DNA from: Parcubacteria group bacterium GW2011_GWA2_47_26
GTDB taxonomy: Bacteria > Patescibacteriota > Patescibacteriia > GWA2-47-26
Direction: 5' to 3'
Length of the DNA: 64,000 nt
Assembly (NCBI GenBank): GCA_001001705.1
Contig: LCOG01000001.1
Span: forward strand, 22,449-86,448
Shown here: positions 5,999 to 61,007 of the stretch, piece by piece
Layout: every line of letters begins with the position of its first letter
Numbering within the stretch: the stretch's first letter is position 1
Notes under the pieces: model-generated
Told to the model about the DNA's origin: nothing
What the model saw: the letters and a program-made list of their open reading frames with translations, nothing else
The model's database searches: none
Position numbers and translations under genes: made by a program

Positions 5999-7941
5999 AC
6001 CAAAAGATGCACACGGGACCAGCGCAAAAGCACATATAATCCCCACATACGCGACCAAGTTATGCCGCCTCTACGCTCCAGAAATTGCCGCCACACATTT
6101 TGACACGCCCTAATATTCAATCCGACTGCGTGAGCGGCCTGCACATCATTGAATACTGCATCAACCTGTCCTCGCAAACGACCACGTAGCCACAGCTCCC
6201 ATGGAAATGTAAATCCCATTTTCTTGCGCGCCCAGATTTCGCACGGCATTTCATCACGCACTGTATTTAAGAGTAATGACTTGGGAATATTACGCGCCAT
6301 CTTTTCACGCTCTGGAATAAACATGACCTGTTCCACTAGCACATGGTCCAGATACGGCACGCGCACCTCCAAACCATGCGCCATGCTCATCACATCTCCG
6401 TCGCGCAAAAGCATATTGGCAAGATAGCCGCGAAGCTCAAGAAGGAAAATTTTGTTAAACATGTCCACGCCTGCAATGTCATTCCCGCGGAAGCGGAAAT
6501 CCACGATTCCCTGATCGATTGTGGATCCCCGACCACGATCGGGGATAACAATTGTTGCTACCGCGTCTTGACTAAACAACTGCCTTGCAATCCCATAAAA
6601 CGTCGACACCTCCCCATCTGACATCAAATATTGCGCCAGCTTTGATCGTGCCACACTACCCTCACCAATAATTCGCGCCAACATTGCCCGCTTCCAACGT
6701 GGTAGCAAATGCAACATTTTCCACCACCGCACCATCCGCGGAATTCGCCGAAAGGTCGGATACCCGCCAAACACTTCGTCTCCGCCTTGGCCGGAAAGCA
6801 CCACTTTAATTCCAACATCTCGCACGGCTTTAGAAATAACATAAGCATTAACTCCGTCAATGGTGGGCTGATCTTGCGCATCAAGCGCGGCCGGCAACAA
6901 CTTTTCTAAATCGCTATCACCCACTTTCAGTTCATGATGCCGCGCACAAAACTTTTCACCGATCATACGCGCATAATGGCCCTCGGCATATTCTTCTTCC
7001 TCAAATGTTACAGAAAACGAATCCAACGTTTTGCCTGCCACACGATGCGCAAGAATTGCCAGCGCGCTGGAATCCACTCCCCCGCTTAAAAAAAGTCCAA
7101 CCGGCACATCGGAAACAAAGTGATGGCGAACTGTATCCTCGAGCACCTCTCGTAGCCCCTCCTGACCTCCCCTTAACCTAAGGGGAGGGACGCTGCTGGA
7201 ATCCCCCCCTCTTAAGTTAAAAGGGGGCTGGGGGGAGTTATGAACGGAACCCGGACTCCAATAAGCCCCACTCTCCACCTTCCCGCTCTCCATCTCATAT
7301 ACAAGATATTGCGCAGGTAACATCGCCTGCACGCCCTTTACAATGGTCAAAGGCGCTTGCACTGCGCCAAATGCTAAAAATGACTGCACTGCCTCGAAAT
7401 TAACCTTGCGCGGTACAATTTCACTTGCAAGTAATGCCTTCACTTCAGAAGAAAATGCAAACAAATTTTCGCTCTTAAAATAATAAAGCGGCTTAATACC
7501 AAACCTGTCCACCGCAAGAAACAATTTTTGCGCTCGCGCGTCAAAAAGCGCAAACGCAAACATCCCGCGCAATTTCTCCACACACTTCACGCCATACTCG
7601 GCATACGCTTTGAGAATCACCTCGGTATCACTTTGCGAGCGAAACGCATGCCCCTTTTTTTCAAGCTCAATCTTAACCGCTTTGAAATTATAAATCTCCC
7701 CATTAAAAACGATCCAATTATCAGTTGTCTCGTCGCGCATGGGCTGATGCCCCGCCGGAGACAAATCAATAATCGCCAGCCGCCGATGCACCAGGCCAAC
7801 TACGCGCCCGCCATCCCCCACTGGCACAATCTCAATCCCCTCATCATCCGGCCCGCGATGCGCAAGCGAAGCCGCAATTTTTTTCAAAAGCGGCTTTTGT
7901 ACTAACTGTTCTGTGCCTATGATCCCGGCTATTCCACACAT
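5995..7941 (-). CDS. asnB: Asparagine synthase (glutamine-hydrolysing) family amidotransferase (AsnB/WbpS-like), with a repeat-derived insertion in the interdomain linker
   Basis: Start set at MCGIAGI, giving the Cys2 nucleophile. PP-loop SDVPVGLFLSGGVDSS. The track ORF extension 7942-8028 is read-through of repeat copy B. Confidence 0.9.
   Translation of the reverse strand: MCGIAGIIGTEQLVQKPLLKKIAASLAHRGPDDEGIEIVPVGDGGRVVGLVHRRLAIIDLSPAGHQPMRDETTDNWIVFNGEIYNFKAVKIELEKKGHAFRSQSDTEVILKAYAEYGVKCVEKLRGMFAFALFDARAQKLFLAVDRFGIKPLYYFKSENLFAFSSEVKALLASEIVPRKVNFEAVQSFLAFGAVQAPLTIVKGVQAMLPAQYLVYEMESGKVESGAYWSPGSVHNSPQPPFNLRGGDSSSVPPLRLRGGQEGLREVLEDTVRHHFVSDVPVGLFLSGGVDSSALAILAHRVAGKTLDSFSVTFEEEEYAEGHYARMIGEKFCARHHELKVGDSDLEKLLPAALDAQDQPTIDGVNAYVISKAVRDVGIKVVLSGQGGDEVFGGYPTFRRIPRMVRWWKMLHLLPRWKRAMLARIIGEGSVARSKLAQYLMSDGEVSTFYGIARQLFSQDAVATIVIPDRGRGSTIDQGIVDFRFRGNDIAGVDMFNKIFLLELRGYLANMLLRDGDVMSMAHGLEVRVPYLDHVLVEQVMFIPEREKMARNIPKSLLLNTVRDEMPCEIWARKKMGFTFPWELWLRGRLRGQVDAVFNDVQAAHAVGLNIRACQNVWRQFLERRGGITWSRMWGLYVLLRWSRVHLLV
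7155..7245. repeat. GC-rich nested-hairpin repeat, copy A (inside asnB, in frame)
   Basis: Hairpin cctccccttaacctaaggggagg at 7166-7188. A second hairpin pairs ccccct with aggggg within 7203-7227. Flanks are cccctcc and ggggggagttatg. Translated as SVHNSPQPPFNLRGGDSSSVPPLRLRGGQEGL. Confidence 0.85.
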
Positions 7942-7953
7942 ACCTTTCTCAAT

Positions 7954-8067
7954 CTCCTCCCCTTTCCGCCCGAGGCGGATCCGCCTTTGGAGGAAAGATA
8001 AGGGGAGGCGGGGAGGGGTTATGATCAACTCGCAACTCCCCTTAATCCCCTCTTACTCTAAGAGGGG
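7954..8067. repeat. Nested-hairpin repeat, copy B (intergenic, upstream of asnB)
   Basis: ctcctcccctttcc...ggaaagataaggggaggcggggaggggttatgatcaactcgcaac...cccctcttactctaagagggg aligns by eye with copy E. Its first loop holds the perfect palindrome aggcggatccgcct (7973-7986). Confidence 0.85.
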
Positions 8068-8083
8068 AAACATCGGCCATCAT

Positions 8084-8110
8084 AACAAAAACCCCGCCTT
8101 TTGGCGAGGG
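8084..8110 (-). terminator. Intrinsic (Rho-independent) terminator after the methyltransferase gene
   Basis: The minus-strand RNA just after the TGA reads CCCUCGCC-AAAA-GGCGGGG, a 7-bp GC-rich stem with one GU pair. It is followed by UUUUUGUU. Confidence 0.6.
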
Positions 8111-8112
8111 TG

Positions 8113-8931
8113 TCATGACTTTCTCCCCCTTCCAATAATCCCATTTGGCCCATAGCGCACCTCCGCATTCTTAAGTCCGGCTTGCTTAAACCACTTCCTT
8201 ACCGCGCGGAGCGTTTGCGGATTGTCGTAGCGCGGGGAGTACATATCAAAAGTATCCAGCACCGACCATTCTTTGTGTATGCGATACGGCAGGCCAAGCG
8301 TCGGGTAACTGGCAATAGGAAATAATCTAGTTCCGATTGATCCTAAAAATTTATGCGCAATGACCGCAAATGGAAGGAGCAATGCAACAACCGCGCGTAC
8401 GAGCAAATAAAGCACGCGCGACGGAATCCACCGCGTAAACGGACGCAAAAAATACTTCCACTGCAAACGCGAAAAAATTGTTTTCTTGTACACATCAATT
8501 ACAATCTCCCCGCCCGGTTTTACAAATTTTGTGAGCTCCAGGAATGCGCGTTTTGGATCTGGCGTATGCTGGATTACTCCCAAACAAAGTACTTTATCAA
8601 ATGTCCCAATATTTTTTGGAATATCAAAAATATCCGCACGGAAAAGGTGCAAATTTTTATGATGCCCGTTGTTCGCGCGATTGGCCTCAACCGCCTCGCT
8701 CGAATCAAATGACCAAACCTCCGCACCAGTTGAAAGCAACACTTCCGTAAACCGTCCCGCGCCAGATCCGGCCTCTAAAATTCGCTGACCCTCCATACGC
8801 TCCGGCCAACTCGTCACTAAAAAAAGTCGTTTACGCGATATCGGAAGTCCGACGAAGCTATCCAGCTGGGTTTTGGCATGCTTGAGCCACTGAAATCCGA
8901 AAGAGGTGGTGTAGTTTGCGGTGTTATTCAT
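8113..8931 (-). CDS. Class I SAM-dependent methyltransferase
   Basis: ILEAGSGAGRFTEVLL (motif I) and VLCLGVIQH. Followed directly by an intrinsic terminator. Confidence 0.8.
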   Translation of the reverse strand: MNNTANYTTSFGFQWLKHAKTQLDSFVGLPISRKRLFLVTSWPERMEGQRILEAGSGAGRFTEVLLSTGAEVWSFDSSEAVEANRANNGHHKNLHLFRADIFDIPKNIGTFDKVLCLGVIQHTPDPKRAFLELTKFVKPGGEIVIDVYKKTIFSRLQWKYFLRPFTRWIPSRVLYLLVRAVVALLLPFAVIAHKFLGSIGTRLFPIASYPTLGLPYRIHKEWSVLDTFDMYSPRYDNPQTLRAVRKWFKQAGLKNAEVRYGPNGIIGRGRKS

Positions 8932-8960
8932 AAATCTGTGTACGAATTACTAATCTTGTC

Positions 8961-9004
8961 CGAATATTACGAATAAATTGTTCAATCCAAATTCGTAGTA
9001 TTCG
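8961..9004. promoter_or_regulatory. 14-nt inverted repeat straddling the stop codon of the DUF2079-like gene
   Basis: cgaatattacgaat (8961-8974) and attcgtagtattcg (8991-9004) match at 13 of 14 positions as complements, 16 nt apart. Further attcgta-like words lie nearby at 8942 and 9012. Confidence 0.3.
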
Positions 9005-10673
9005 CAACGCCATTCGTTGATTCATACACATTACGATAAAGCTCATAGCCATCCTCCTCTGCCACGCGCTCCCATACTTCATTTGCCACCACTGCGTCAA
9101 TCTCTTCCTTACTCATGTGCGCGGGACTTTCTGACCTCAATCCATTATTGGTACGATCCACAAACACATAGTCCGCCTGATATTGCCCGTCTTTACTGAC
9201 AATCTGGGGGAATGGCATTGCGCCGCGTTTCTTAAACAGGCGTGGTTGGAGAAATTCTTGCGCTGACACAATCGCATCCTCTGGAATCATCTCCACGAAT
9301 TTATTAGCCGCGCGGTGATGGTCTGTAACACGATACACGGACCAATGAAAATCCTGTGTCCGAAACGGCGCAGGCTGGATATTTTTAAGCCAGAATTGCA
9401 GAGAAATTGGCGAGGGACCGAAAAAGATGTTGGAGACAAGCACTGCGGCAAGCAGAGCATTCATGAACGCCCCCTCACCCCTCACCCCTGCCTGCGCAGG
9501 CAGGCCAACTCTCTCCCAAAGGGAGAGGGAGACGAAACGAGGCCAGGCCTTAAGCAGAGCGTAAAAAATAAATGGCACGCTGGGCGCGATATAATAAAGC
9601 ATATATGAAGTATGAATCGTGCCCTCGCTCAAAAGCCCAATCCCGATATTCGCCGCCGCGCCGATAAGAACGAGCGGCGCTAAAAGCGGAACAAACAGCA
9701 CGGGCAACCCCAACATGAAAATGTTGGCAAGTTTTGTTGGATCAAGGATAACGGTCAGCGCCGCAATGGGATGGCGTATTACACTGCTCACGATTTCAAG
9801 CGGGCTCGTACCAAATTGAGCAAACGATCCGGCGGCAACATGCTTAAACTGTTCCGCGCTACTAAAGGCCGGCATAACCACACTCGTTATCAGCACAAAT
9901 CCCACGAGCCCAAGTGTGAGCGCAGACAATCCTTCCTTACGCCGCTTCGCAAAAACCCACGCATACACGCCAAACATCGCCACGGTCAATCCAACCTCCT
10001 CGCGCACCAAAATCGCGAGTATTACAAAAATTAGATACGGAACCATACGCCGTGTTTCAAAAAAATACAGCATCCATAGCAGAAGCGGAATACTAAACCG
10101 CAACATTTCAAATTCATACAAAGTAATGTATTGAAATGTGGGATACCAAAGCAAAAGTACAACTACAAAAAATCCGGACATCTTCCTACCATCTTTCCAT
10201 AACCCCTCCTCGCCTCCCCTTATCTTAAGGGGAGGAACATAGTGGAGAAGCGCCAGTTTATACAGTGGAATCGCCGCGGAAAGCATGGCGAGCGCATTGA
10301 ACACCATCAGTGTTTCCGGCCGCGGGATGAGCTTAAAAGGAATCGCGAACAAGTAAATCAAGGGTATGAAGTGAACGGAAAAATAATTTAGCGTTCCGGG
10401 AATTATAAATTCATGACTTAATATTTCTGGCCAGCCCTTTATGGTAATGTTCCGAAGTATTTGCAACCAGTGCGAAAAATCAGTAAAAAAATGGAGATTC
10501 TGATATTTCAAATATTGCGCAAAAAAAATGTACGCGGATAATCCCATCAGCGCGTACAACAACCATAAAGGAATCTTCCACCCCAAACGACGGCTCGTTA
10601 CATATGTCAAAACACTCCCGACGATCACCGCAAACGCGCCGATAAGATAAAAAATGACCAGCGAGGCATTCAT
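8982..10673 (-). CDS. Polytopic membrane protein, DUF2079/GT-C-like
   Basis: Start at MNASLV (ATG 10673), 2 nt after the stop of the small upstream ORF. Many hydrophobic segments. The NYFSVHFIPLIYLF region and the size recall DUF2079. Two repeat insertions give PPLKIRGGEEGLW and SLSLWERVGLPAQAGVRGEGA. Confidence 0.55.
   Translation of the reverse strand: MNASLVIFYLIGAFAVIVGSVLTYVTSRRLGWKIPLWLLYALMGLSAYIFFAQYLKYQNLHFFTDFSHWLQILRNITIKGWPEILSHEFIIPGTLNYFSVHFIPLIYLFAIPFKLIPRPETLMVFNALAMLSAAIPLYKLALLHYVPPLKIRGGEEGLWKDGRKMSGFFVVVLLLWYPTFQYITLYEFEMLRFSIPLLLWMLYFFETRRMVPYLIFVILAILVREEVGLTVAMFGVYAWVFAKRRKEGLSALTLGLVGFVLITSVVMPAFSSAEQFKHVAAGSFAQFGTSPLEIVSSVIRHPIAALTVILDPTKLANIFMLGLPVLFVPLLAPLVLIGAAANIGIGLLSEGTIHTSYMLYYIAPSVPFIFYALLKAWPRFVSLSLWERVGLPAQAGVRGEGAFMNALLAAVLVSNIFFGPSPISLQFWLKNIQPAPFRTQDFHWSVYRVTDHHRAANKFVEMIPEDAIVSAQEFLQPRLFKKRGAMPFPQIVSKDGQYQADYVFVDRTNNGLRSESPAHMSKEEIDAVVANEVWERVAEEDGYELYRNVYESTNGVANTTNLD
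9469..9532. repeat. Hairpin repeat, copy C (ccctcacc / tgcctgcgcaggca / ctctccc-nnn-gggagag type), in frame in the membrane protein
   Basis: ccccctcacccctcacccctgcctgcgcaggcaggccaactctctcccaaagggagaggga. Same module order as copies F and G. Confidence 0.8.
10198..10240. repeat. Hairpin repeat, copy D (in frame in the membrane protein)
   Basis: cataacccctcctcgcctccccttatcttaaggggagg. The reverse complement matches aagataaggggaggcggggaggggttatg of copy B. Confidence 0.8.
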
Positions 10674-10675
10674 AC

Positions 10676-10900
10676 TTATTTCTCTTTTTTCGCATCTCGT
10701 TTCCAATGTGCTTTTATCCATCTTGAAATTTGCTTCCAGAAAAAGAGTATCGGACTTAAAACAAACGCCAACGCGGCGATCCCAATAAGATACACCGCTT
10801 GAAAAAGCTGACCGGCAAGGCCAAGATCAATGTAGGCCTGCGCCTGATTTGGAACAAACACAATAATCAAAAGGGTCATTAGAGCTAAACATTTTCTCAT
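10676..10900 (-). CDS. Small secreted/membrane protein (signal peptide + one TM)
   Basis: 74 aa. MRKCLALMTLLIIVFVPNQAQA, then a hydrophobic helix and a basic tail. Fits the gap between neighbours exactly. Confidence 0.35.
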   Translation of the reverse strand: MRKCLALMTLLIIVFVPNQAQAYIDLGLAGQLFQAVYLIGIAALAFVLSPILFFWKQISRWIKAHWKRDAKKEK

Positions 10901-10916
10901 ATGTTATTGGCTACAA

Positions 10917-14616: not shown

Positions 14617-14619
14617 GAG

Positions 14620-15822: not shown

Positions 15823-15910
15823 TCTCTCCTCCCCTTAATGTAAGGTGAGGCTGGGATGGGTTATGGATGACTCGTAACCCCCTCTATATCCCCCTTAACC
15901 TAAGGGGGAG
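15823..15910. repeat. Nested-hairpin repeat, copy E (intergenic; overlaps the stop of the RmlD-like gene and abuts the start of the 2-epimerase gene)
   Basis: ctcctccccttaatgtaaggtgaggctgggatgggttatggatgactcgtaaccccctctatatcccccttaacctaagggggag. Confidence 0.85.
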
Positions 15911-16757
15911 AAAATTGATTAAGTTGTTTCAATGCTTCCTCCATGTTATTTCCGTGTGAAAATAATCTTTCTAACCACTCGTACTTGGTCTTAAGCACGC
16001 GCTCAACACTACCCCGCGGGTCTTCCGTCGGTTCCACACTGATATTCTTTTTGAACACTTTTTTAAACAACACCAGCAACTCATACTTTGTCATCGGTCC
16101 ATTTGGCGCAAAATGAAACACGGATGATTCTTTCCGCAGCGCATTAAACGCGCCGGTCTTGATGATTTTCTCACATAACTGCGCAAATTGTAAGGTAGTA
16201 ACTCCGTTCCAGATATGATTGGTAAAACCCTTAACCACCCAGCCGTCGGGCTGGGACAAAAACCATTCCAGCAGTCCTTTCTTCTTGTTGGGACTGGAAC
16301 CAATAATAGAAGTACGGATATTGATCACATTGGGCGCATTCACTTCCCCTTCAAGCTTACTTTTTCCATACGCATCAGTCGAATCCGCCGGCGAATCTTC
16401 ATCGTAGCCCTCACCCGGCCTACGACCACCCTCTCCCTTAGGGAGAGGGTGGGGTGAGGGGCGACCGGAAAATACCCCGTCGGTAGACATATTTATAATT
16501 TTCGCGCTTGTTGCTTTTGCTAACCGATGAGGAAACTCTGCATTCACCGCTTGCATCTGCGCCTCATCACTCCCGGAAAGTACGCCAATGCAGTTAATTA
16601 CATACTCATACACGGAGACATCTTGCTGCGTAAATGTTTCTACATCAAAATTTCTAGAATCCACTCCCTTGACTTCCCATTCTTTCTCTTGCGCAAGCGC
16701 CTTCAATACCATGTGCCCTAGCATGCCGGTGCTTCCGAGTACAAGAATCTTTTTCAT
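15900..16757 (-). CDS. RmlD-like NAD(P)-dependent sugar reductase, with an in-frame repeat insertion
   Basis: MKKILVLGSTGMLGHMV. STDGVFSG[RPSPHPLPKGEGGRRPGEG]YDEDSPADSTDAYGKSKLEGE, where the bracketed part is repeat copy F. The last codons SPP-TAG lie in repeat copy E. Confidence 0.7.
   Translation of the reverse strand: MKKILVLGSTGMLGHMVLKALAQEKEWEVKGVDSRNFDVETFTQQDVSVYEYVINCIGVLSGSDEAQMQAVNAEFPHRLAKATSAKIINMSTDGVFSGRPSPHPLPKGEGGRRPGEGYDEDSPADSTDAYGKSKLEGEVNAPNVINIRTSIIGSSPNKKKGLLEWFLSQPDGWVVKGFTNHIWNGVTTLQFAQLCEKIIKTGAFNALRKESSVFHFAPNGPMTKYELLVLFKKVFKKNISVEPTEDPRGSVERVLKTKYEWLERLFSHGNNMEEALKQLNQFSPP
16408..16460. repeat. Hairpin repeat, copy F (in frame in the RmlD-like gene)
   Basis: Perfect 11-bp-stem hairpin caccctctcccttagggagagggtg at 16427-16451. 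It is nested in the outer arms ccctcacc and ggtgaggg. Confidence 0.85.
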
Positions 16758-16762
16758 GGATA

Positions 16763-18052: not shown

Positions 18053-18776
18053 AAAAAAATGCGATTAATGCATAACATAAATAAGTTACCATAGTGCGCA
18101 AGGTATAGGGGAAATGCGTATCGCCTTGCCCTGCTTTACGATCCGTAAGAATATAAGGGACTTCACAGAATGAACGGGCCAGACGTTTTGCTTGACACAA
18201 TTCTTCCATAATAATAGGGAATCCGTTCTCTTTTAAGTGCAATTGCTTGAGTATCTCTGCTTTCACTGCTCGAAATCCGTTGGTAACATCCGTGAGCGGC
18301 AATTGAAAAAGAAATCCGCCCACCATATTACCAATCCGTGAAAACATCCTGCGCTTAAAGGCAACTCCTTCCATACCGCCGCCTTTTGTATACCGTGTGG
18401 CTTTAATGTACTCGCAACCTTGGGTCATCTTATCGTAAAACAACGTAAGATATTTAGGATGGTTTGTCAAATCGCTATCCATAAATAACGCGTAGTCATA
18501 CCCGTTATCTATCGCGTAGCGCATGCCTGTACGTAGCCCAGCGCCATACCCTTGATTACGATTATGCGACACCATAGTGAACCGCGACTTATCACCAACT
18601 TTGTCAACCATAACACGAACAATCTCGACTGTTCTATCTTTTGAACCGTCGTTTACAATCAGAAGAGTAGTGGAATATGGGAGCGTTTCAAGATAAGGGA
18701 GAATGGTTTCAATACTGGACTTCGCAATCGCTTCCTCGTTATACATAGGAATAATAATGCACACTTTCAAAACCAT
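18036..18776 (-). CDS. GT2 polyprenol-phosphate glycosyltransferase (DPM1/ArnC/GtrB-like)
   Basis: ATG 18776 (MVLKVCIIIPMYNEE); the track start 18818 is TTG. LIVNDGSKDRT, FMDSDL, and a C-terminal hydrophobic tail. Confidence 0.8.
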   Translation of the reverse strand: MVLKVCIIIPMYNEEAIAKSSIETILPYLETLPYSTTLLIVNDGSKDRTVEIVRVMVDKVGDKSRFTMVSHNRNQGYGAGLRTGMRYAIDNGYDYALFMDSDLTNHPKYLTLFYDKMTQGCEYIKATRYTKGGGMEGVAFKRRMFSRIGNMVGGFLFQLPLTDVTNGFRAVKAEILKQLHLKENGFPIIMEELCQAKRLARSFCEVPYILTDRKAGQGDTHFPYTLRTMVTYLCYALIAFFYGRPK

Positions 18777-19492
18777 AAAATTCCTAAACGATGTCCAAAT
18801 CCGCGCGCAAGAATCCAAAGATATCCTAGACCTTCTCGCACAAGATTGAAATCTTTATTAAGGGGTGACGGTTTCATTACCGATGAGACATAGCCCACCT
18901 TTCCCTTTGCTAACAGCGCCTTTAACGTAATTTCCGGACAAATGCTGTAACCATTTTGGGTGAGGCCAAGCGCCTGGATAAACGCCCGGTCAAACATCTT
19001 AAACCCATAGGTGGAATCAGTGATATCCTGGCGCAATAATGCCCGCGTGAGTGTACGATAGATCACCTGATACACTTTAAACTTGAACGGCATACCGCGC
19101 GCGTCTTCCGGTTTGGTATAGCGAGTCGCCTGTACCACTTGCGCGCCTTGACGAATTTTTAAAAGCATCTTTGGGATAATACTTAAATCATCCTCGCCAT
19201 AGGGAGAAACAATAGCTGCATATCGGCTTGCGGAGTGTGCGATGCCAAAACGGGTAAGCGCGCCAAACAATGCATCACGGCTGCTACGCTGAAGCATGGT
19301 CATTTTAAGCCAAGGGTAGTTTTTACGCGCATACTCAACTATCATCTCGGGATTCTTTGCGCTAGGATTCGCAACCACTATAAGATCAACATCGCTCGGA
19401 TTGACCATTAAATACCGAGCGAGTTCGTCAATAAATTTTGGCAATGTTTCAATAGTTGAAACACAGGGAACAACAATGGACAACTCATTCAT
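18767..19492 (-). CDS. Divergent GT2-like protein (nucleotide-binding Asp motif degenerate)
   Basis: LSIVVPCVSTIETL and DLIVVANPSAKN, where GT2 enzymes normally have VDDGS. Retains SPYGEDDL. Confidence 0.55.
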   Translation of the reverse strand: MNELSIVVPCVSTIETLPKFIDELARYLMVNPSDVDLIVVANPSAKNPEMIVEYARKNYPWLKMTMLQRSSRDALFGALTRFGIAHSASRYAAIVSPYGEDDLSIIPKMLLKIRQGAQVVQATRYTKPEDARGMPFKFKVYQVIYRTLTRALLRQDITDSTYGFKMFDRAFIQALGLTQNGYSICPEITLKALLAKGKVGYVSSVMKPSPLNKDFNLVREGLGYLWILARGFGHRLGILWF

Positions 19493-20466
19493 AAGTTATG
19501 CTTGATCACCCGCCCCAGTGGCGACTCATATTCAGAAAGCAATGGCCTTAAATAAAGATAATTGGAAAAACGCGTCGTAAACGAATCTTTAATACGGCCT
19601 TCTTCGAGCAATTGTTTCAATTCTCTGATTCCGTCATCCACAGTTAATTTTGGATCAAATCCCAGCTCAACTTTGGCCTTATCAGATGAGACACGATAAT
19701 CCCGATCATCTTGAAATTTATCCGATGTAATTTCAACTTCCACATCGGTAAAGTAAGCTTTGATTCGTTCCGCTATCTGTAGGATAGTAACATTTTCGGA
19801 GTGAAGATTGTAAATACCGGTCTGCGTTTTATCAAGCACATGTGCCACCGTTGCCGCCGCATCGCGTACATGCAAAAGTGGACGGTACTGCGCTCCACCA
19901 AATACGCTGATTTTTTTATGCAGCGCAGCGCGCATCGCCAATGTGTTCACCACTAAATCAAACCGGACCCGTGAAAATGTGTCGCTGACCCCAAAAAGCG
20001 TGCCTAACCGGAAAATCAGCGCGCCAGGATGCGCCGCTAGGATTTCCTCTCCCCAAAGCTTCGTCTTAGCGTATAAGGAAAGCGGATTCAATGCCGATAT
20101 TTCCGTCAGCACGCTTTCGCTTGCGCCATATACAGAACAGGATGACATGAAAATAATACGGCCACGAAAATGGTCTTTTAAATATTCCAATGAACGCTTA
20201 TTCACGTCAAACGTAAGCTCCTCATTTAGCGCACACGCAGGATCACCCACTAACGCCGCAAGCCACACTACTGCATCAGCCCAATCCAAATGCTTTTGTA
20301 ATTTCTCATAATCCCGCACATCTCCGCGCACAAACGGAATCTGCTTGCGATATGATTCTTCATATAATAAAAGGTCGTACACAAGAATCTCGTGGGGCGA
20401 CTGCATTAAAATATCCGTAAGCGCGCCACCGAGATAACCCGCACCACCAACAATCAATATTTTCAT
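19489..20466 (-). CDS. NAD-dependent nucleotide-sugar epimerase/dehydratase (SDR), paralogue of 2717-3652
   Basis: ATG 20466 (MKILIVGGAGYLGGAL) in an ATGA overlap with the upstream stop. YAKTK. The 5' 180 nt of the track ORF overlaps the upstream gene. Confidence 0.85.
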   Translation of the reverse strand: MKILIVGGAGYLGGALTDILMQSPHEILVYDLLLYEESYRKQIPFVRGDVRDYEKLQKHLDWADAVVWLAALVGDPACALNEELTFDVNKRSLEYLKDHFRGRIIFMSSCSVYGASESVLTEISALNPLSLYAKTKLWGEEILAAHPGALIFRLGTLFGVSDTFSRVRFDLVVNTLAMRAALHKKISVFGGAQYRPLLHVRDAAATVAHVLDKTQTGIYNLHSENVTILQIAERIKAYFTDVEVEITSDKFQDDRDYRVSSDKAKVELGFDPKLTVDDGIRELKQLLEEGRIKDSFTTRFSNYLYLRPLLSEYESPLGRVIKHNL

Positions 20467-22139
20467 ACAGATTTTATCCGCATATTTTCTGTAGATTCGC
20501 CTTTCATTTGCTGATTCGCACCGTAATTTACATTGGTTGCCGCATAGGTCAGCGCGATAATAGTCCAAAGCCAAGGATGCACCCAAGTAATATCTGCCAT
20601 ATTCACCAGTCCCGCGACAGTTACCAGTAACGCAAACAAGAAACACAGGAGTTTTCTTTTTTCAGGATCAGAAGTGGTACGCAGAACATAAGCACTTTTA
20701 TAAATCACTGTTCCTAATATTCCCAAAAAAGCGAAAAGTCCGATCGCGCCGGTTTCTGCCCAAGCATTCAGATAAATATTATAAATACCAATGATCCCTG
20801 GACTAAACTCCGTATTACTTAAAACAATTTCGCGAAAAGGCAACCAAGCCAGATAATCTTTATCGAGCGATTTTACTCTAAGAGTTTTAGAATAATCATC
20901 TATTACGCGAGGCGTTTGTCCTGCGCCAATTCCTGTCCATGGGTTAGACCAGCCCATCAGCCATCCACTCATAAAGCCGCGCATTCTGACATCAACAGAT
21001 GACCCTCTCCCAAACAATCCTGCCCATCGCCGACTCACTTGATTTTCAGCACTATACTCATCAATGAGAAAAGTGGGTTTTTCTTTAAGAGGCGGAGATG
21101 GTTCCGGTGCTGGCGCTGGCGGAGATGGTTCCGGTGCTGGCGCTGGCGGAGATGGTTCCGGTGCTGGCGCTGGTGTAGCAGGAGCTGGTTCAGGAGCTGA
21201 AGGAGCTACAGCCACCTCTACTGGTTCAGGTTTAGGCGTTAATTTTTTTTCAAGCAATAGTGCCAGCTTTTGACTCTGTTTTTCACTTTCTTTAAGGTCC
21301 AGCGCGCCTCCAGTAATTGTATTATAAGCCAAAAGATATTTATTCTTTATTGGAACAATGTTTAATTGAAAAACTAAAAGAACAACAAAAAGAAATGTGA
21401 GTGTAAATGCTTTGAGGCGCTGACCAACCAGCATAACCATTAGCAATATCAGTAAAATTAGCGTTGCGATTTGATGAAGCTTGACTGCAGGCAGTATTGT
21501 TACCCACAGCCATAATGCCACAAAAAACCACAAAACATATCTTATTTTTTTATTTTTTTCACTAAAAAATACGTACACCAATCCAACTCCAAACATCAGC
21601 AACATATATGCAAAATAACCCGCGATATCATTGCCTAAAATAGTCGGCTGTTCTCGGGTCATAAAAATTCCACCCCGCATTATGTAAATCGCAAAGGAAT
21701 GCATTACCACAATCACTGCCGCCGCTCCCATCACAACCATTATGGCTCGTAACAAACTCTCCGAGCGTATCACATTAAAAAGGATAATCACCAATACGCT
21801 GTAACTGGCAACTGCTATTGCAACATCAAAACCAGCCTCCGGTATTGGTGAATTTACAACCGAAACAAACTGTATTGAAAACTGCAAAAGCAGAAACGCG
21901 TAGAACCACGGCGCTTTTTTTATTACAATCTGACCATTCAAATACGCACGCGTACCAAAAATAACCACGAACAAAAGCGCTATTTCTGTAAATTTAATCA
22001 CACGGCCATTTCGAAATAAATCTAACCCAAATACATTAAAAGGCAGAACAGCAATATATATAAGAATACTCAAATTGAGCCAAAAACTTTCCTTTTGACT
22101 AAGGGCGTATTTTATGTCTTGAAGAAAAGCAATTCTCAT
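20463..22139 (-). CDS. O-antigen ligase/polymerase family (Wzy_C) membrane protein with a Pro/Ala/Glu-rich repeat linker
   Basis: About 10 TM segments in the N-terminal half. WSNPWTGIGAGQ and NIYLNAWAETGAIGLFAFLGIL. Internal APEPSPPAPAPEPSPPAPAPEPSPP. Confidence 0.7.
   Translation of the reverse strand: MRIAFLQDIKYALSQKESFWLNLSILIYIAVLPFNVFGLDLFRNGRVIKFTEIALLFVVIFGTRAYLNGQIVIKKAPWFYAFLLLQFSIQFVSVVNSPIPEAGFDVAIAVASYSVLVIILFNVIRSESLLRAIMVVMGAAAVIVVMHSFAIYIMRGGIFMTREQPTILGNDIAGYFAYMLLMFGVGLVYVFFSEKNKKIRYVLWFFVALWLWVTILPAVKLHQIATLILLILLMVMLVGQRLKAFTLTFLFVVLLVFQLNIVPIKNKYLLAYNTITGGALDLKESEKQSQKLALLLEKKLTPKPEPVEVAVAPSAPEPAPATPAPAPEPSPPAPAPEPSPPAPAPEPSPPLKEKPTFLIDEYSAENQVSRRWAGLFGRGSSVDVRMRGFMSGWLMGWSNPWTGIGAGQTPRVIDDYSKTLRVKSLDKDYLAWLPFREIVLSNTEFSPGIIGIYNIYLNAWAETGAIGLFAFLGILGTVIYKSAYVLRTTSDPEKRKLLCFLFALLVTVAGLVNMADITWVHPWLWTIIALTYAATNVNYGANQQMKGESTENMRIKSV
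21092..21172. repeat. 27-bp tandem repeat, three exact copies (degenerate continuation to ~21210), inside the Wzy_C gene
   Basis: The unit ggcggagatggttccggtgctggcgct occurs three times head to tail. It encodes (PAPAPEPSP)n on the minus strand. Confidence 0.9.
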
Positions 22140-22147
22140 ATTGTCTG

Positions 22148-23299
22148 TCAGAAAATAAAAGATTGGTATAGTTTATCATACTTTTTTACTATGTCGCCAA
22201 TACTGAACTGTTTCACCATTGAAGACCGTGCCTCATTCCCTATACGTTCCGCCTCTTGAGGGTGTGTTATAATATGGGTAATCGCATAGGCAAGCGCGGG
22301 TGCATCATCAAGCGGAACCAGATAGCTATTCACTTTGTGTGTCGCCAGCGCCCGTATTCCCTCAATATCAGACCCTATAACAGGAAGCCCAGAACTCATC
22401 GCTTCAAGAAGAACGTTTGACAAACCCTCGGCGCGAGAAGGAAGTACAAAAAGATCCACAACTTGATAGTATATGCGCACATCTCTGACTGTGCCACAAA
22501 ACGTTATTTCGTCACCAAGGTTATGGGTAGCAACATATCGTTCGAATGACGGGCGCAGTGGTCCGTCTCCAACAATCCAAAGGTGTGTATTACATCTAAC
22601 GTTGCGCATTGCCTCCAGAAGCACGGGAATATTTTTTTGAGGATCAAACTTACCGACAAAAAGCGCGATCTTCTTATCAGGTGCGATTCCCATCTCTTTG
22701 CGCAACGCCGTCTTTTGCGCCGTATCGGACGGATAAAAGTGTTCGGTATCCACACCGTTAGGAATATCAACAATTGGGTGGAAACTCTCAACCACCATCT
22801 CTTTGCGTGTCTCTTCGCTTATAGCAATCCACTCATCCACTGCGCGCCGCATCATTTTCTTTATCCATAGTGATCCGGGAAGTATGTTGAGAAATTTAAC
22901 ATCACCGAATTCGCCTCCGCAGCAATTTTTTACAACTAATTTTTTTGAACGCAGGAATAATTTCGCAAAACCCGCCACAACTCCAGAGGTATAGAGTTGA
23001 TGGGCGTGTATAATATCGTACCGCTTTCGTAGAATAAAAAGCAACGCTAACACACCCAATCCATATAAGACTATATTAAGATATCGCGCACCTCCCACAA
23101 GTGGAATCCGGTATACTTGAAATCCTTCTTTTTTATCAACTATGCGCAGATGTTCTTTACTCATGTGCCCGAGATACGCGCAAGTAATAAAAAAAATCTC
23201 GTGTCCGTTTTTCCGTAGTCGCTTAGCAAGTTGCAATGCTTGCCGCTCCATTCCGCCAGTTTGAGAATCAAGATAAGTGAGCAGATACACAATTTCCAT
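22148..23299 (-). CDS. Glycosyltransferase family 4
   Basis: TGGMERQALQLAKRL, LFVGKFDPQKN, VLPSRAEGLSNVLLEAMSSGLPVIGS. Confidence 0.85.
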   Translation of the reverse strand: MEIVYLLTYLDSQTGGMERQALQLAKRLRKNGHEIFFITCAYLGHMSKEHLRIVDKKEGFQVYRIPLVGGARYLNIVLYGLGVLALLFILRKRYDIIHAHQLYTSGVVAGFAKLFLRSKKLVVKNCCGGEFGDVKFLNILPGSLWIKKMMRRAVDEWIAISEETRKEMVVESFHPIVDIPNGVDTEHFYPSDTAQKTALRKEMGIAPDKKIALFVGKFDPQKNIPVLLEAMRNVRCNTHLWIVGDGPLRPSFERYVATHNLGDEITFCGTVRDVRIYYQVVDLFVLPSRAEGLSNVLLEAMSSGLPVIGSDIEGIRALATHKVNSYLVPLDDAPALAYAITHIITHPQEAERIGNEARSSMVKQFSIGDIVKKYDKLYQSFIF

Positions 23300-24452
23300 A
23301 AAGTTCCTCGTATGGCCGGACTATCTTTTCCATTGCATAGTGCTCATCAATGATTACTCGCGAACGTCCGCCCATTTCTAGGCGTTCGCGTAGATGATCA
23401 ACCATATATTGCATAGCATCGCATAGAGTTTTGGAATTCTCTGGATCAATCAGAATTCCATTACCATTTACTAAATCGCTATTGCCTCCCCGATTGCTCA
23501 AAATAACCGGCAACCCATAAGCCATTGCTTCCAGCGCTGAATTGGAAAGTCCTTCAGTTGAAGAAGGTAGCACAAATACATCACTTTTTTTCAAATATTC
23601 ACCAACATCATCCACTGGCCCTTGAATATCCACAATATCTGTCAGATTATACTGCTTTACTGCATCCGTCAATGCTGCACGATCCGGGCCGTCACCAAGC
23701 AGGATCAACTTCATTTTGTCACGATAAGAAAGCGGCAGGGCATTAACCGCGTCAAGTAATAAAATAAGATTTTTTTTAAATGTGAAAGTGCCAGTAAAGA
23801 TAAATCGTACAAGTGAATTACCCTCACCTGCCTGCGCAGACAGCCCCTCTCCTCTCCCGATGGGAGAGAGTCTCCGATTGTAATTGGAGGGGTCCACCCC
23901 ATTGGGAATATACACTAACTTTTCCTCAGAAACATGGTTACGCACAAGATCATCATAAACCGCCCGGCTTGTCCATACAAATTTTGTGATGGTGCGCTTC
24001 ACATTCCATGCGGCCAATTGTCCGTAGATATGGGTTCTCCGCAACACCTCCAAGTCAAATCTTTCTCCGGAATTGCCGATTTTACATACAATTGGTTTAT
24101 TTCTTAGGGGTGCCGCGAGGGTGGCCGCAAAAGCCGGCCAAAGACATTGGTGCACATGCACCACATCATATCCCTGCGCAATTCTATACACCCGCCACCA
24201 CATAAAAAATGGTGCGAGATATCCAAGACCAATACGATATCCAAATGCGCGGATCACGGGATACCATACACGCTCAACTTCCACACCGTCAATCATTTCG
24301 TGTTTCTGTGTGTTTCGCGGATTCCGTACGGTAAGCACCTTGATACTGTGTCCATGCGCCTTGAGTGCCTTTGATAACTTTAAACACTGCCGCTCCGCGC
24401 CTCCAACAATCGGATGGAATTGGCCAATAACCATTAAAATCTTCATAGCCAT
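23268..24452 (-). CDS. Glycosyltransferase family 4 with an in-frame repeat insertion between the two Rossmann halves
   Basis: VGGAERQCLKLSKAL. NGVDPSNYNR[RLSPIGRGEGLSAQAGEGN]SLVRFIFTGTF, where the bracketed part is repeat copy G. VLPSSTEGLSNSALEAMAYGLPVILS. Confidence 0.85.
   Translation of the reverse strand: MAMKILMVIGQFHPIVGGAERQCLKLSKALKAHGHSIKVLTVRNPRNTQKHEMIDGVEVERVWYPVIRAFGYRIGLGYLAPFFMWWRVYRIAQGYDVVHVHQCLWPAFAATLAAPLRNKPIVCKIGNSGERFDLEVLRRTHIYGQLAAWNVKRTITKFVWTSRAVYDDLVRNHVSEEKLVYIPNGVDPSNYNRRLSPIGRGEGLSAQAGEGNSLVRFIFTGTFTFKKNLILLLDAVNALPLSYRDKMKLILLGDGPDRAALTDAVKQYNLTDIVDIQGPVDDVGEYLKKSDVFVLPSSTEGLSNSALEAMAYGLPVILSNRGGNSDLVNGNGILIDPENSKTLCDAMQYMVDHLRERLEMGGRSRVIIDEHYAMEKIVRPYEELYGNCVSAHLS
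23821..23875. repeat. Hairpin repeat, copy G (in frame in a GT4 gene)
   Basis: ccctcacctgcctgcgcagacagcccctctcctctcccgatgggagagagtctcc. Confidence 0.8.
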
Positions 24453-61006: not shown

Positions 61007-61007
61007 A

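What the first reader, a model, noticed from the sequence alone, without database searches (positions are those of the whole stretch)
7155..23875. GC-rich nested-hairpin repeat family inserted in frame into five positions of four otherwise recognisable genes
Seven copies share hairpin modules: CCTCCCCTTA-nnn-TAAGGGGAGG with cccctcc/ggagggg flanks, and CCCTCACC, TGCCTGCGCAGGCA and CTCTCCC-nnn-GGGAGAG. Five lie inside ORFs without breaking the frame, and host-family motifs are intact on both sides. The sites are the AsnB interdomain linker (7155-7245), two sites in the DUF2079-like membrane protein (9469-9532 and 10198-10240), RmlD-like between FSG and YDED (16408-16460), and a GT4 inter-Rossmann linker (23821-23875). 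They translate to PLRLRGG/PLKIRGGEEGL or PLPKGEG/SPIGRGEG/LPAQAG-type peptides. In copies C and G the same hairpin is read in different frames, so only frame-preserving variants appear to have been retained. This recalls the behaviour reported for Rickettsia palindromic elements. All copies lie in the left 24 kb and none in the right 40 kb.
Basis: seen in the sequence. Interest (0 to 1): 0.8.

Follow-up and report, generated by a model that had tools for sequence, protein, structure and literature searches.

The report
Coding palindromic repeats in a CPR bacterium
Short GC-rich hairpin repeats that lie mostly between genes in other bacteria and phages have been inserted in frame into loops of five sugar-pathway enzymes of an ultra-small (CPR) bacterium, much as reported for Rickettsia, and this seems not to have been described for this group.

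Summary
The window comes from the CPR bacterium "Parcubacteria group bacterium GW2011_GWC2_45_7". Its left 24 kb carries seven loci of C/T-rich nested hairpins, 8 perfect ones against 0.1 expected by chance. Five loci lie in frame inside AsnB, a DUF2079 membrane protein (two sites), an RmlD-like reductase and a GT4 glycosyltransferase.

Alignments with up to 120 orthologues show that each segment is lineage-specific. It is absent from the closest relatives, and in a few more distant ones it is replaced by a different repeat at the same spot. Structure models place the AsnB and DUF2079 inserts in low-confidence loops between helices or domains.

Type 1 units follow TCRTAAC-Y6-n3-[CCTCCCCTTA-n3-TAAGGGGAGG], often as inverted pairs. 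Together these make an 80-90-nt element bounded by TAAC...GTTA. The same element, with 20/20-nt identical stems and the same flanks, occurs in Geobacter, Nitrospirae, Firmicutes, many CPR lineages and phage contigs. There it is about 95% intergenic. In CPR loci about half the copies sit in frame in genes, including RuvB, PrmC, Fmt and TsaD.

Best reading: selfish MITE/REPIN-like elements that survive only in permissive loops and in stop-free frames, and are translated. The transposition mechanism is unknown. This is a new member of the Rickettsia-palindromic-element kind.

The parts
7150..7243 (-). Copy A: inverted doublet inside asnB (gene 7941..5995, minus strand). Unit A1 is TCGTAGCCCCTCC-tga-CCTCCCCTTA-acc-TAAGGGGAGG (7150-7188). 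After a 14-nt spacer comes unit A2, CCCCCCCTCTTAAgttaaAAGGGGG-ct-GGGGGGAGTTATGA (7203-7243). It is translated as HNSPQPPFNLRGGDSSSVPPLRLRGGQEGL.
   Evidence: It is absent from the closest AsnB homologues. The AF2 model has its only segment with pLDDT below 50 at residues 234-253, a coil between the glutaminase and synthetase domains. The doublet folds at -48.7 kcal/mol, z -3.35.
7953..8068 (.). Copy B: intergenic composite between the methyltransferase gene and asnB. It holds a split CCTCCCCTT...AAGGGGAGG hairpin enclosing a CCGCC/GGCGG palindrome, then GGGGAGGGGTTATGA, then CTCGCAACTCCCC-ttaa-TCCCCTCTTA-ctc-TAAGAGGGGA. The flanks face inwards.
   Evidence: Folds at -59.6 kcal/mol, z -3.5.
9469..9532 (-). 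Copy C (type 2) in DUF2079 site 2. On the coding strand it reads TCTCCCTCTCCC-ttt-GGGAGAGA-gttgg-CCTGCCTGCGCAGGCAGG-GGTGAGGGGTGAGGGG, translated as SLSLWERVGLPAQAGVRGEG.
   Evidence: Orthologue P0122 has the same element without the 18-nt palindrome, and the closest relatives have a 13-aa short form. The AF2 model shows coil at 402-409 with pLDDT below 50 at 404-407.
10197..10240 (-). Copy D (type 1 single unit) in DUF2079 site 1: CCATAACCCCTCC-tcg-CCTCCCCTTA-tct-TAAGGGGAGG on the + strand, translated as PPLKIRGGEEGLW.
   Evidence: 114 of 120 orthologues lack any extra residues here, while P0124 carries its own complete two-flank element at the same site and in the same frame. The AF2 model shows coil at 160-172 between two helices.
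15826..15909 (.). Copy E: intergenic doublet between the RmlD-like gene and the Epimerase_2 gene. It reads CCTCCCCTTA-atg-TAAGGtGAGG-ctGGGATGGGTTATGGATGACTCG-TAACCCCC-tctata-TCCCCCTTA-acc-TAAGGGGGA. The flanks face inwards.
16408..16461 (-). Copy F (type 2) in the RmlD-like reductase. The outer stem CCCTCACC/GGTGAGGG encloses CCACCCTCTCCCT-t-AGGGAGAGGGTGG. Translated as RPSPHPLPKGEGGRRPGEG.
   Evidence: 117 of 120 orthologues have 27-28 aa between DGVFSG and YGK(S/T)K where the window has 42. Folds at -43.4 kcal/mol, z -4.9.
23821..23875 (-). Copy G (type 2) in GT4 (23268..24452). On the coding strand it reads CTCTCTCCC-atc-GGGAGAG-gagaGGGG-CTGtCTGCGCAGGCAG-GTGAGGG, translated as LSPIGRGEGLSAQAGEG.
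   Evidence: It lies at residues 195-211, between Pfam Glyco_transf_4 (16-189) and Glycos_transf_1 (216-354). It is about 13 aa longer than the closest relatives.
5405..5440 (-). Possible degenerate type 2 copy in the paralogous GT4 (4874..6058). It reads CACCCTATCCT-att-GGGAGAGGGAAGGGTG, translated as PYPIGRGKGE, at the same inter-Rossmann linker as copy G.
   Evidence: The palindrome is imperfect and no orthologue comparison was made.

Best explanation
These are copies of small, non-autonomous, selfish palindromic repeat elements. At least two families are present.
- Type 1: an asymmetric unit of about 40 nt, TCRTAAC-Y6-n3-hairpin. It usually occurs as an inverted pair, giving an 80-90-nt element bounded by TAAC...GTTA.
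- Type 2: an outer stem CCCTCACC/GGTGAGGG around a CTCTCCC/GGGAGAG hairpin.

The proposed sequence of events is as follows.
- The elements spread within and between genomes, probably carried by phages.
- This genome has almost no intergenic DNA, so they land in coding sequence.
- Only copies survive that add a multiple of three bases, are read in a stop-free frame and fall in a permissive linker or surface loop.
- Those copies are transcribed and translated as Pro/Gly/Arg-rich loops, such as PPLxLRGG and SPxGRGEG.

Shown here: the repeat family, its architecture, the insertions relative to orthologues, their loop location and the cross-phylum and phage distribution. Inferred: mobility, the selection filter, translation of the inserts and the transposition chemistry. 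The termini fit either a TA-duplicating MITE or a REP/RAYT-like single-strand hairpin element.
For: Repeat family and statistics.

Lineage-specific insertion in otherwise length-invariant segments.

Recurrent independent hits on the same loops:
- P0124 carries a full element at DUF2079 site 1.
- At least three repeat families, in different frames, occur at site 2.
- P0243 carries a different insert at the RmlD site.

Loop location: the inserts are low-confidence coil between domains or helices.

Distribution:
My own estimate of the chance expectation is about 2.
- It also occurs in 24 stretches of phage contigs, including contigs from the metagenome that holds this organism.
- 29 complete doublets of 75-99 nt are bounded by TAAC...GTTA.

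Genic fraction: 19/37 in CPR loci against 7/171 in other bacteria, Fisher p = 1.5e-11. Without the window it is 14/30, p = 7e-9.

In-frame copies in confirmed RuvB, PrmC, Fmt, TsaD and AMP-binding enzymes. The RuvB case is exactly 29 extra codons, one doublet, relative to the five closest of 80 metagenome orthologues aligned; the matched lengths of the rest are about 30 codons shorter too.

Frame logic: with a 3-nt loop the type 1 hairpin always carries TAA in one frame, and 7 of 8 genic copies in genome loci use the always-open PPLxLRGG frame.

Compactness: 56 ORFs are tightly packed on one strand, and the two sizeable spacers consist almost entirely of repeats.
Against: - No transposase, RAYT or recombinase is encoded in the window; all 56 ORFs were scanned.
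- No autonomous partner bounded by the same termini was found in about 1 Mb of held loci.
- No target-site duplication beyond a possible TA could be shown.
- No empty site is available at high nucleotide identity; the nearest orthologues are 64-76% identical in protein.
- Identical proteins carrying the inserts occur on 5-6 contigs, so nothing shows current activity.
- Stems stay perfectly complementary inside coding sequence while loops vary. Pure neutral decay does not predict this, so it hints at recent insertion, templated correction or selection on structure.
- All copies cluster in the left 24 kb of a functionally uniform 64-kb glycan cluster. The chance of this is about 0.001 for 7 independent sites, and it is unexplained.
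- Translation of the inserts is not demonstrated.
Confidence: 0.75

Rival explanations
1. The hairpins are functional cis-elements, retained for what they do and not merely tolerated. Candidate roles are mRNA or DNA structures that pause ribosomes at domain boundaries, sequester SD-like GGGGAGG/GGAGGGG motifs, stabilise the long polycistronic transcript, or bind a nucleoid protein such as IHF/HU, as proposed for similar Geobacter sequences.
For: - Stems are perfectly complementary and their sequence is conserved across phyla, while loops vary.
- The AsnB and GT4 copies lie exactly at interdomain linkers.
- Folding is very stable, -43 to -60 kcal/mol.
- Aklujkar et al. [quoted passage not shown]
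Against: - Orthologues work without them; 114-117 of 120 lack them.
- Positions are scattered and differ between relatives.
- Three of the five genic copies fold no better than shuffles of the same composition.
- About 95% of copies elsewhere are intergenic, with no fixed position relative to genes.
- This reading is not exclusive of a selfish origin.
Confidence: 0.1
2. The segments were not inserted from elsewhere. They are locally generated low-complexity or quasi-palindromic sequence in fast-evolving loops, made by template switching or slippage, and their similarity is convergent.
For: - The host sites are the most length-variable parts of the proteins.
- The sequence is compositionally simple, C/T runs facing G/A runs.
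Against: - Copies share about 40 aligned positions including non-palindromic flanks (TCRTAAC, GGGGTTATGA).
- The same 80-90-nt doublet, with two different internal hairpins in a fixed order, recurs in unrelated genes, in intergenic DNA, in other phyla and in phages.
Confidence: 0.05
3. The elements interrupt the genes but are not translated. They would be excised from the mRNA or bypassed by the ribosome, as with T4 gene 60 or the byp elements of Magnusiomyces mitochondria.
For: Stable hairpins lie inside ORFs. GC-rich mobile hairpins are bypassed in one yeast mitochondrion; this rests on my own knowledge and was not tested here.
Against: - All five window copies, and the CPR copies in RuvB, PrmC, Fmt and TsaD, are stop-free and preserve the frame. 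That would be unnecessary if they were skipped.
- The always-open frame is used preferentially.
- In RmlD the element-encoded residues replace about 4 residues of a segment that is length-invariant in 117 of 120 orthologues, so exact removal would shorten the loop.
Confidence: 0.03
4. They are DNA uptake signal sequences, often paired as inverted repeats, which accumulate in tolerant reading frames of coding DNA as in Haemophilus and Neisseria.
For: CPR bacteria are thought to rely on DNA uptake (my own knowledge). Uptake sequences do accumulate in permissive frames and in poorly conserved protein regions.
Against: - The same sequence occurs in many unrelated phyla and in phages. Uptake signals are lineage-specific.
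- Copies are clustered in 24 kb and absent from the next 40 kb.
- The unit is a structured 40-90-nt element, not a 9-12-mer.
Confidence: 0.03

Closest known systems
Rickettsia palindromic elements (RPE; Ogata et al. 2000 and 2002, as summarised in PMC10969869)
   Same: Both are palindromic repeats inserted in frame into unrelated protein-coding genes of a small, compact genome. Both are tolerated in loops without destroying the fold. In both, copies also occur between genes and no transposase is known.
   Different: RPEs are about 100-150 bp and restricted to Rickettsia and relatives. Here the units are about 40 nt (80-90 nt as doublets), unrelated in sequence and made of C/T-rich against G/A-rich arms. 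They are shared almost identically by many phyla and phages, where they are mostly intergenic.
REP / REPIN / BIME elements mobilised by RAYT transposases (PMC3116915, seen; otherwise my own knowledge)
   Same: Both have a 20-40-nt hairpin preceded by a conserved short 5' motif (GTAG in REPs, TAAC here). Both are asymmetric units found in either orientation, commonly as inverted doublets that fold into one long hairpin, with mosaic combinations of hairpin variants.
   Different: REPs are by definition extragenic and species-specific, and they are linked to a RAYT gene flanked by REPs. Here half the CPR copies are intragenic, the sequence is shared across phyla, and no RAYT was seen in the DNA examined.
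Geobacter 'multicopy nucleotide sequences' (Aklujkar et al. 2009, PMC2700814, class 4 CCYTC-based sites; Aklujkar et al. 2010, PMC2996986)
   Same: This is probably the same superfamily. [quoted passage not shown] My scan found the element in many Geobacteraceae. [quoted passage not shown]
   Different: Those reports are brief annotation notes. The sequences were interpreted as IHF/HU binding sites, with no architecture, no cross-phylum analysis and no link to CPR or phages. I could not verify sequence identity because the supplementary alignments are not held as text.
MITEs with TA target duplication (for example Correia elements of Neisseria; review PMC10969869)
   Same: The doublet is 75-99 nt long with terminal inverted repeats (C)ATAACCCCTCC...GGRGGGGTTAT(G), and a TA at both ends could be a duplicated target. 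Occasional in-frame intragenic copies are known for MITEs.
   Different: No duplication beyond the TA, no parent insertion sequence and no empty site were found. Single one-flank units are common, which fits REP-like elements better than MITEs.
Coding palindromes of Nematomorpha mitochondria (PMC6649704) and GC-cluster/byp elements of yeast mitochondria (my own knowledge)
   Same: All are hairpin-forming inverted repeats embedded in protein-coding genes of compact genomes.
   Different: Those are organellar, much longer (up to 284 bp) or bypassed during translation, and unrelated in sequence.

Membership tests
Rickettsia palindromic elements (RPE) | Sequence homology to one of the RPE families (about 100-150 bp consensus) | not tested
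   No RPE consensus sequence was available to align. The unit length here (about 40 nt; 75-99 nt as doublets) and the taxon differ. Rfam, which could hold related structured repeats, gave no hit.
Rickettsia palindromic elements (RPE) | Palindromic repeat inserted in frame in unrelated protein genes, with host motifs intact on both sides | tested here: met
   The same behaviour is seen in other CPR genes.
Rickettsia palindromic elements (RPE) | Insert located on the protein surface or in a loop, compatible with the fold | tested here: met
   In the AsnB model the insert is the only segment with pLDDT below 50 and is interdomain coil. In the DUF2079 model both sites are coil between helices. RmlD and GT4 were not modelled; for GT4 the Pfam domain borders place the insert between the two Rossmann halves.
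REP / REPIN (RAYT-mobilised) | Short imperfect palindrome preceded by a conserved 5' tetranucleotide, occurring in both orientations and as inverted doublets | tested here: met
   Three of the four type 1 loci in the window are inverted doublets. The tetranucleotide is TAAC, not GTAG.
REP / REPIN (RAYT-mobilised) | Extragenic location | tested here: not met
   5 of 7 window loci, and 19 of 37 copies in CPR loci, are inside ORFs. In non-CPR bacteria 164 of 171 are extragenic.
REP / REPIN (RAYT-mobilised) | A cognate RAYT (Y1/HUH transposase) gene in the genome, typically flanked by REPs | tested here: inconclusive
   None of the 56 window ORFs is a RAYT. The rest of the genome could not be read.
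MITE (non-autonomous DNA transposon) | Terminal inverted repeats | tested here: met
   29 doublets are bounded by TAAC(C/T)CC...GG(G/A)GTTA, and the consensus often extends to CATAAC...GTTATG.
MITE (non-autonomous DNA transposon) | Target-site duplication flanking the element | tested here: inconclusive
   Only the terminal TA could be a duplication, and no longer direct repeat is seen. Filled and empty comparisons are possible only at 60-75% protein identity.
MITE (non-autonomous DNA transposon) | Parent insertion sequence with the same termini encoding a transposase | tested here: not met
   The search for TAAC...GTTA pairs 0.6-3 kb apart enclosing a long ORF, in about 1 Mb of loci, found only ThiG, a phage tail-like protein and a spurious ORF. 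The sample is small.
Intron, intein or translational-bypass element | Removal of the segment from the RNA or protein, or skipping by the ribosome, with no requirement for an open frame | not testable with these tools
   Indirect evidence is against it: all copies are stop-free and in frame, with a frame preference. At 13-30 aa they are too short for an intein, and Rfam found no intron.
CRISPR array | Regularly spaced identical direct repeats with unique spacers | tested here: not met
   Copies are dispersed over 17 kb, inverted, and inside genes.

The most novel reading that the evidence does not exclude
An element of about 85 nt bounded by TAAC...GTTA, with two hairpins, is kept almost identical in sequence across distant bacterial phyla and is carried by phages. 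It behaves as a pan-bacterial mobile element. In CPR/Patescibacteria, whose genomes have almost no intergenic room, it and sister families are a major and recurrent source of the lineage-specific loops seen in their proteins, including essential enzymes such as RuvB, TsaD, Fmt and PrmC. The conserved perfect stems may further mean that the element is maintained by an unknown hairpin-recognising enzyme shared across phyla.
Probability: 0.35. Interest if true: 0.7.

Novelty: new member of a known kind. Interest (0 to 1): 0.6.

Why it matters
- In-frame 'coding palindromes' are treated as a Rickettsia curiosity. The 2024 MITE review calls them exceptional and says only that something similar is 'conceivable' elsewhere (PMC10969869).
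- Finding the same behaviour in CPR bacteria, a large part of bacterial diversity, with an element shared with Geobacter, Nitrospirae, Firmicutes and phages, would have three consequences.
  - It would explain part of the odd insertions that complicate CPR protein annotation and alignment.
  - It would give a natural experiment on which loops of conserved enzymes tolerate 13-30 extra residues.
  - It would pose a concrete question about what moves or maintains a 40-90-nt hairpin element across phyla.
- Practical point: gene callers and homology tools should expect PPLxLRGG, SPxGRGEG and GVRGEG peptides as repeat-derived.

Tried and rejected
- **Rfam.** A scan of the whole window with permissive filters found nothing relevant.
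- **Literature by sequence.** Full-text search for the four 10-mers returned only unrelated primers.
- **Literature by topic.** Searches linking RPE-like insertion with CPR, Patescibacteria or MAGs found none.
- **Geobacter supplements.** The alignments are not held as text, so identity with the 'class 4' family could not be checked.
- **Empty sites at high identity.** None exist in the protein databases, where the nearest orthologues are 64-76% identical. The one metagenome scan was therefore spent on RuvB of a Rifle Uhrbacterium. It gave a clean 29-codon insertion but only 75% identity, too diverged to read a target duplication.
- **Autonomous partner.** No element with the same termini and a transposase was found. 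One search failed on a frame error.
- **Integron attC site.** Considered and rejected. RYYYAAC...GTTRRRY has the AAC/GTT on the inner side of the core sites, whereas here TAAC/GTTA are outermost and the Y/R runs lie inside.
- **Type IB topoisomerase CCCTT site.** Rejected, because types 1b and 2 lack it.
- **CRISPR, intein, intron.** Rejected on architecture and size.
- **Assembly artefact.** Rejected, because two independent assemblies are identical across four copies.
- **GC-window and k-mer scans.** Searches were too noisy to be useful.

Full report
**Source and setting**

- The AsnB protein of the window is 100% identical to a protein of 'Parcubacteria group bacterium GW2011_GWC2_45_7', a CPR/Patescibacteria MAG. 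That protein is seen on 5 contigs.
- A JGI contig from metagenome 3300025309 (L001) is 99.92% identical to window 8298-17520. It differs only by two small indels in the sulfatase gene.
- The window holds 56 tightly packed ORFs, nearly all on the minus strand.
- Pfam shows one very large surface-glycan and sulfation cluster. It includes GT4, GT2 and GT family 4 enzymes, sugar-nucleotide epimerases and dehydratases, DegT aminotransferases, NeuB, ATP sulfurylase, APS kinase, sulfotransferases, a sulfatase and an ABC transporter.
- No transposase or recombinase is encoded.
- Only two spacers of appreciable length exist, 7942-8112 and 15823-15899. Both consist almost entirely of the repeats.

**Check of the observation**

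- They are far more than chance would give.
  - CCTCCCCTTA with up to 1 mismatch gives 14 hits against 2.7 expected.
  - Perfect pyrimidine/purine hairpins number 8 against 0.1 in shuffles.
  - With one mismatch allowed there are 8 regions, all between 7165 and 16452.
- A formal alignment of the seven type 1 units with three relatives keeps about 40 columns. The consensus is TCRTAACCCCTCC-nnn-CCTCCCCTTA-nnn-TAAGGGGAGG. The similarity therefore does not dissolve under alignment.
- Five loci lie in intact ORFs with Pfam domains on both sides.
- The CTCTCCC/GGAGAG hairpin is read in all three frames in the three type 2 copies.
- Correction: asnB starts at ATG 7941 (MCGIAG...), so locus B is intergenic.
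- Addition: a degenerate copy probably sits at 5405-5440, in the linker of the second GT4.

**Anatomy**

- Type 1 is an asymmetric unit: a TAAC motif, a run of six or seven pyrimidines, three bases, then a 10+10 hairpin whose loop borders read TTA...TAA.
- Units occur in both orientations and mostly as inverted pairs.
  - In asnB the TAAC flanks face outwards.
  - In the two intergenic loci the flanks face inwards.
- In the loci fetched from elsewhere I found 29 complete doublets of 75-99 nt. All are bounded by TAAC...GTTA.
- In most of them the order is fixed: hairpin 1 is CCTCCCCTTA/TAAGGGGAGG and hairpin 2 is CCCCCTCTTA/TAAGAGGGGG, or variants of these.
- Type 2 has an outer stem CCCTCACC/GGTGAGGG around CTCTCCC-nnn-GGGAGAG, plus a short third module.
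- In copies C and G that third module is the 18-nt palindrome CTG(C/T)CTGCGCAGGCAG.
  - The orthologous element in P0122 lacks exactly these 18 nt.
  - The palindrome occurs alone in a Gottesmanbacteria locus.
  - Nesting is therefore plausible but not proven.
- Predicted folding:
  - asnB doublet: -48.7 kcal/mol (z -3.35).
  - RmlD copy: -43.4 kcal/mol (z -4.9).
  - Intergenic locus B: -59.6 kcal/mol (z -3.5).
  - Copies C, D and G fold no better than shuffles of the same skewed composition.

**Insertions, not ancestral sequence**

| Host protein | Window | Orthologues |
|---|---|---|
| AsnB (YWSP...DTVRHH segment) | 48 aa, the longest of 120 | closest relatives (62-67% identical) 24-28 aa |
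| DUF2079 site 1 | 30 aa | 114 of 120 have 13-14 aa |
| DUF2079 site 2 | 27 aa | closest relatives have a 13-aa short form |
| RmlD-like (DGVFSG...YGK(S/T)K) | 42 aa | 117 of 120 have 27-28 aa |
| GT4 linker | about 13 aa longer | closest relatives |

- At DUF2079 site 1 the closest orthologues, P0122 and P0123, have no insert. P0124, which is more distant, has its own complete two-flank type 1 element at the same site and in the same frame.
- At DUF2079 site 2 a scattered set of orthologues carries different repeat-derived peptides.
  - SLSLWERVGVR-type peptides occur in P0122, P0167 and P0219.
  - The same hairpin in another frame occurs in P0126 and P0128.
  - An unrelated VIA...RSDN/RNDR palindrome family occurs in P0124 and P0131.
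- In the RmlD-like protein the closest orthologue, P0242, has no insert, while P0243 has a different and longer repeat-like insert at the same place.
- This patchy pattern, which does not follow the phylogeny and involves several families, is what repeated insertion plus selection for permissive loops would produce.

**Structure**

- The AsnB model has pLDDT 85.6 and pTM 0.87. Its only segment below pLDDT 50 is at residues 234-253, which lies within the insert. It is coil between the glutaminase and synthetase domains.
- The DUF2079 model has pLDDT 76. It puts site 1 in coil 160-172 and site 2 in coil 402-409, each between helices.
- The GT4 insert, residues 195-211, lies between the two Pfam Rossmann halves.

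**Distribution**

- The exact hairpin CCTCCCCTTA-N2-5-TAAGGGGAGG was searched in one genome per species of GTDB. My own estimate of the chance expectation is about 2.
- The hits span these groups:
  - Geobacteraceae and Desulfuromonadales
  - Nitrospirota and Thermodesulfovibrionia
  - other Deltaproteobacteria and Gammaproteobacteria
  - Firmicutes and Bacteroidales
  - many CPR lineages: Uhr-, Gottesman-, Doudna-, Dojka- and Saccharibacteria, and Parcubacteria
- The non-palindromic flanks are conserved too.
- IMG/VR phage contigs also carry the hairpin, in 24 stretches and with several copies per contig. Some come from the metagenome that holds this organism and from others with neighbouring JGI identifiers.
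- Type 2 occurs in CPR, Deltaproteobacteria, Nitrospirae, Geobacter and phage loci as well.

**Where the copies sit**

- I used a simple test: a stop-free frame through the element with at least 50 codons on each side.

| Group | Copies inside long ORFs |
|---|---|
| CPR loci, window included | 19 of 37 |
| CPR loci, window excluded | 14 of 30 |
| Other bacteria | 7 of 171 |
| Phage contigs | 4 of 49 |

- Fisher's test against other bacteria gives p = 1.5e-11 with the window and p = 7e-9 without it.
- Pfam confirms that the CPR hosts are real housekeeping genes:
  - RuvB, with the insert between the AAA-lid and winged-helix domains
  - PrmC
  - Fmt
  - an AMP-binding enzyme
- TsaD and a PMT_2 membrane protein also carry copies, in bins labelled Gammaproteobacteria.
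- The RuvB insert is exactly 29 codons, one doublet, relative to the five closest of 80 metagenome orthologues, which I aligned. The matched lengths of the other 75 are about 30 codons shorter as well.
- With a 3-nt loop the type 1 hairpin has TAA in one frame. A second frame is open only if the loop gives TAY. The third frame, PPLxLRGG, is always open, and 7 of 8 genic copies in genome loci use it.

**Interpretation**

- The most economical reading is a family of small selfish elements with REP/REPIN- or MITE-like architecture.
- They spread horizontally, with phages as plausible carriers. In a genome with almost no non-coding DNA they are seen mainly where selection lets them persist.
- Those places are linkers and loops, with a length that is a multiple of three and a stop-free frame. 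They are then translated as flexible Pro/Gly/Arg-rich loops.
- Shown: the family, its architecture, the insertions, the loop location, the distribution and the CPR-specific genic enrichment.
- Inferred: mobility, the selection filter, translation and the enzyme.
- Several observations are against or remain unexplained.
  - No transposase, no autonomous partner and no target duplication beyond a possible TA were found.
  - No empty site is available at high nucleotide identity.
  - Stems stay perfect inside coding DNA while loops vary.
  - All copies cluster in the left 24 kb of a functionally uniform cluster, with a chance of about 0.001.

**Comparison with known systems**

- In behaviour this matches Rickettsia palindromic elements, which the 2024 MITE review still presents as the exceptional case.
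- In architecture it is closer to REP/REPIN/BIME elements or to a TA-flanked MITE.
- It is very likely the same superfamily that Aklujkar et al. noted in passing in Geobacter.
[quoted passage not shown] - I found no paper describing such coding repeats in CPR bacteria.

**Verdict**

- Novelty: a new member of a known kind. The notable extras are the cross-phylum and phage distribution and the frequent insertion into essential CPR genes.
- Interest: 0.6.

Noticed in passing
L002-L120 (genome loci) and L124-L147 (phage contigs): The type 1 element has identical 10+10 stems and conserved TAAC/GTTA flanks across Geobacteraceae, Nitrospirota, Deltaproteobacteria, Firmicutes, Bacteroidales, many CPR lineages and IMG/VR phage contigs. 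Firmicutes copies have a distinct flank (cttatcccctccg...) and a CCA loop.
   Followed up: partly
L025:2700-4200 (Desulfuromonadaceae MAG): Eight copies of the element lie in 1.4 kb. Four of them sit in tandem units of about 220 nt, each holding one complete doublet plus a conserved spacer of about 130 nt. This is a higher-order repeat built from the same element.
   Followed up: no
Orthologues P0124 and P0131 (DUF2079 site 2), P0003 (AsnB second variable region), L036 (AMP-binding enzyme): A second, unrelated palindromic repeat family is also inserted in frame in CPR proteins. It translates as VIASPEGAWRS...LLRFARSDN or VIARERSDRGDL...SFAPRNDR, and one instance has the DNA core GTCATCGCAAGC...GCTCGCAGTGAC. 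Sometimes it occupies the same loop as the type 2 element.
   Followed up: no
window 11674-11679 and 11141-11142 (sulfatase gene 10917-13262): The JGI assembly L001 lacks 5 nt and 2 nt here. This splits the 781-aa sulfatase into products of 532 and 188 aa. These are the only differences in 9.2 kb, so they are either a frameshift polymorphism or assembly errors.
   Followed up: partly
window 21091-21173, inside ORF 20463-22139: A perfect 27-nt tandem repeat of 3.1 copies (GGCGGAGATGGTTCCGGTGCTGGCGCT) lies in a 558-aa ORF with no Pfam match. It would encode a 9-residue peptide repeat.
   Followed up: no
window 18013-18040: A perfect (TAT)x9.3 microsatellite lies at the overlap of the C-methyltransferase ORF (16763-18052) and the GT2 ORF (18036-18818). 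It could be a slippage site near a start codon.
   Followed up: no
window 1-64000, especially 59022-63263: The whole 64 kb is one co-directional glycan cluster in a CPR genome, and it includes a full sulfation route. One 751-aa ORF (61008-63263) fuses a pyruvate-kinase barrel, a PUA_2 domain and an ATP sulfurylase. There is an APS kinase with an N-terminal PQ-loop (60206-61006), two sulfotransferases, a sulfatase, and NeuB/CMP-sugar genes.
   Followed up: no
window 1-24000 against 24001-64000: All repeat loci lie in the left 24 kb, although the right 40 kb encodes the same kind of enzymes. GC content is also higher on the left: 0.44-0.50 for genes at 5995-10721 against 0.34-0.45 for many genes on the right. 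The left part may have a different origin or age.
   Followed up: partly
window 5405-5440 and 23821-23875: Two paralogous GT4 genes carry a type 2 element at the same inter-Rossmann linker; one copy is degenerate. Such a shared patch could serve as a recombination point for swapping donor and acceptor domains. This is speculation.
   Followed up: no
L113:1022-2365 and L045:5461-7188: In-frame copies in TsaD and in a PMT_2 membrane protein lie on contigs of bins labelled 'uncultured Gammaproteobacteria'. Either in-gene insertion also happens outside CPR, or these contigs are mis-binned.
   Followed up: no
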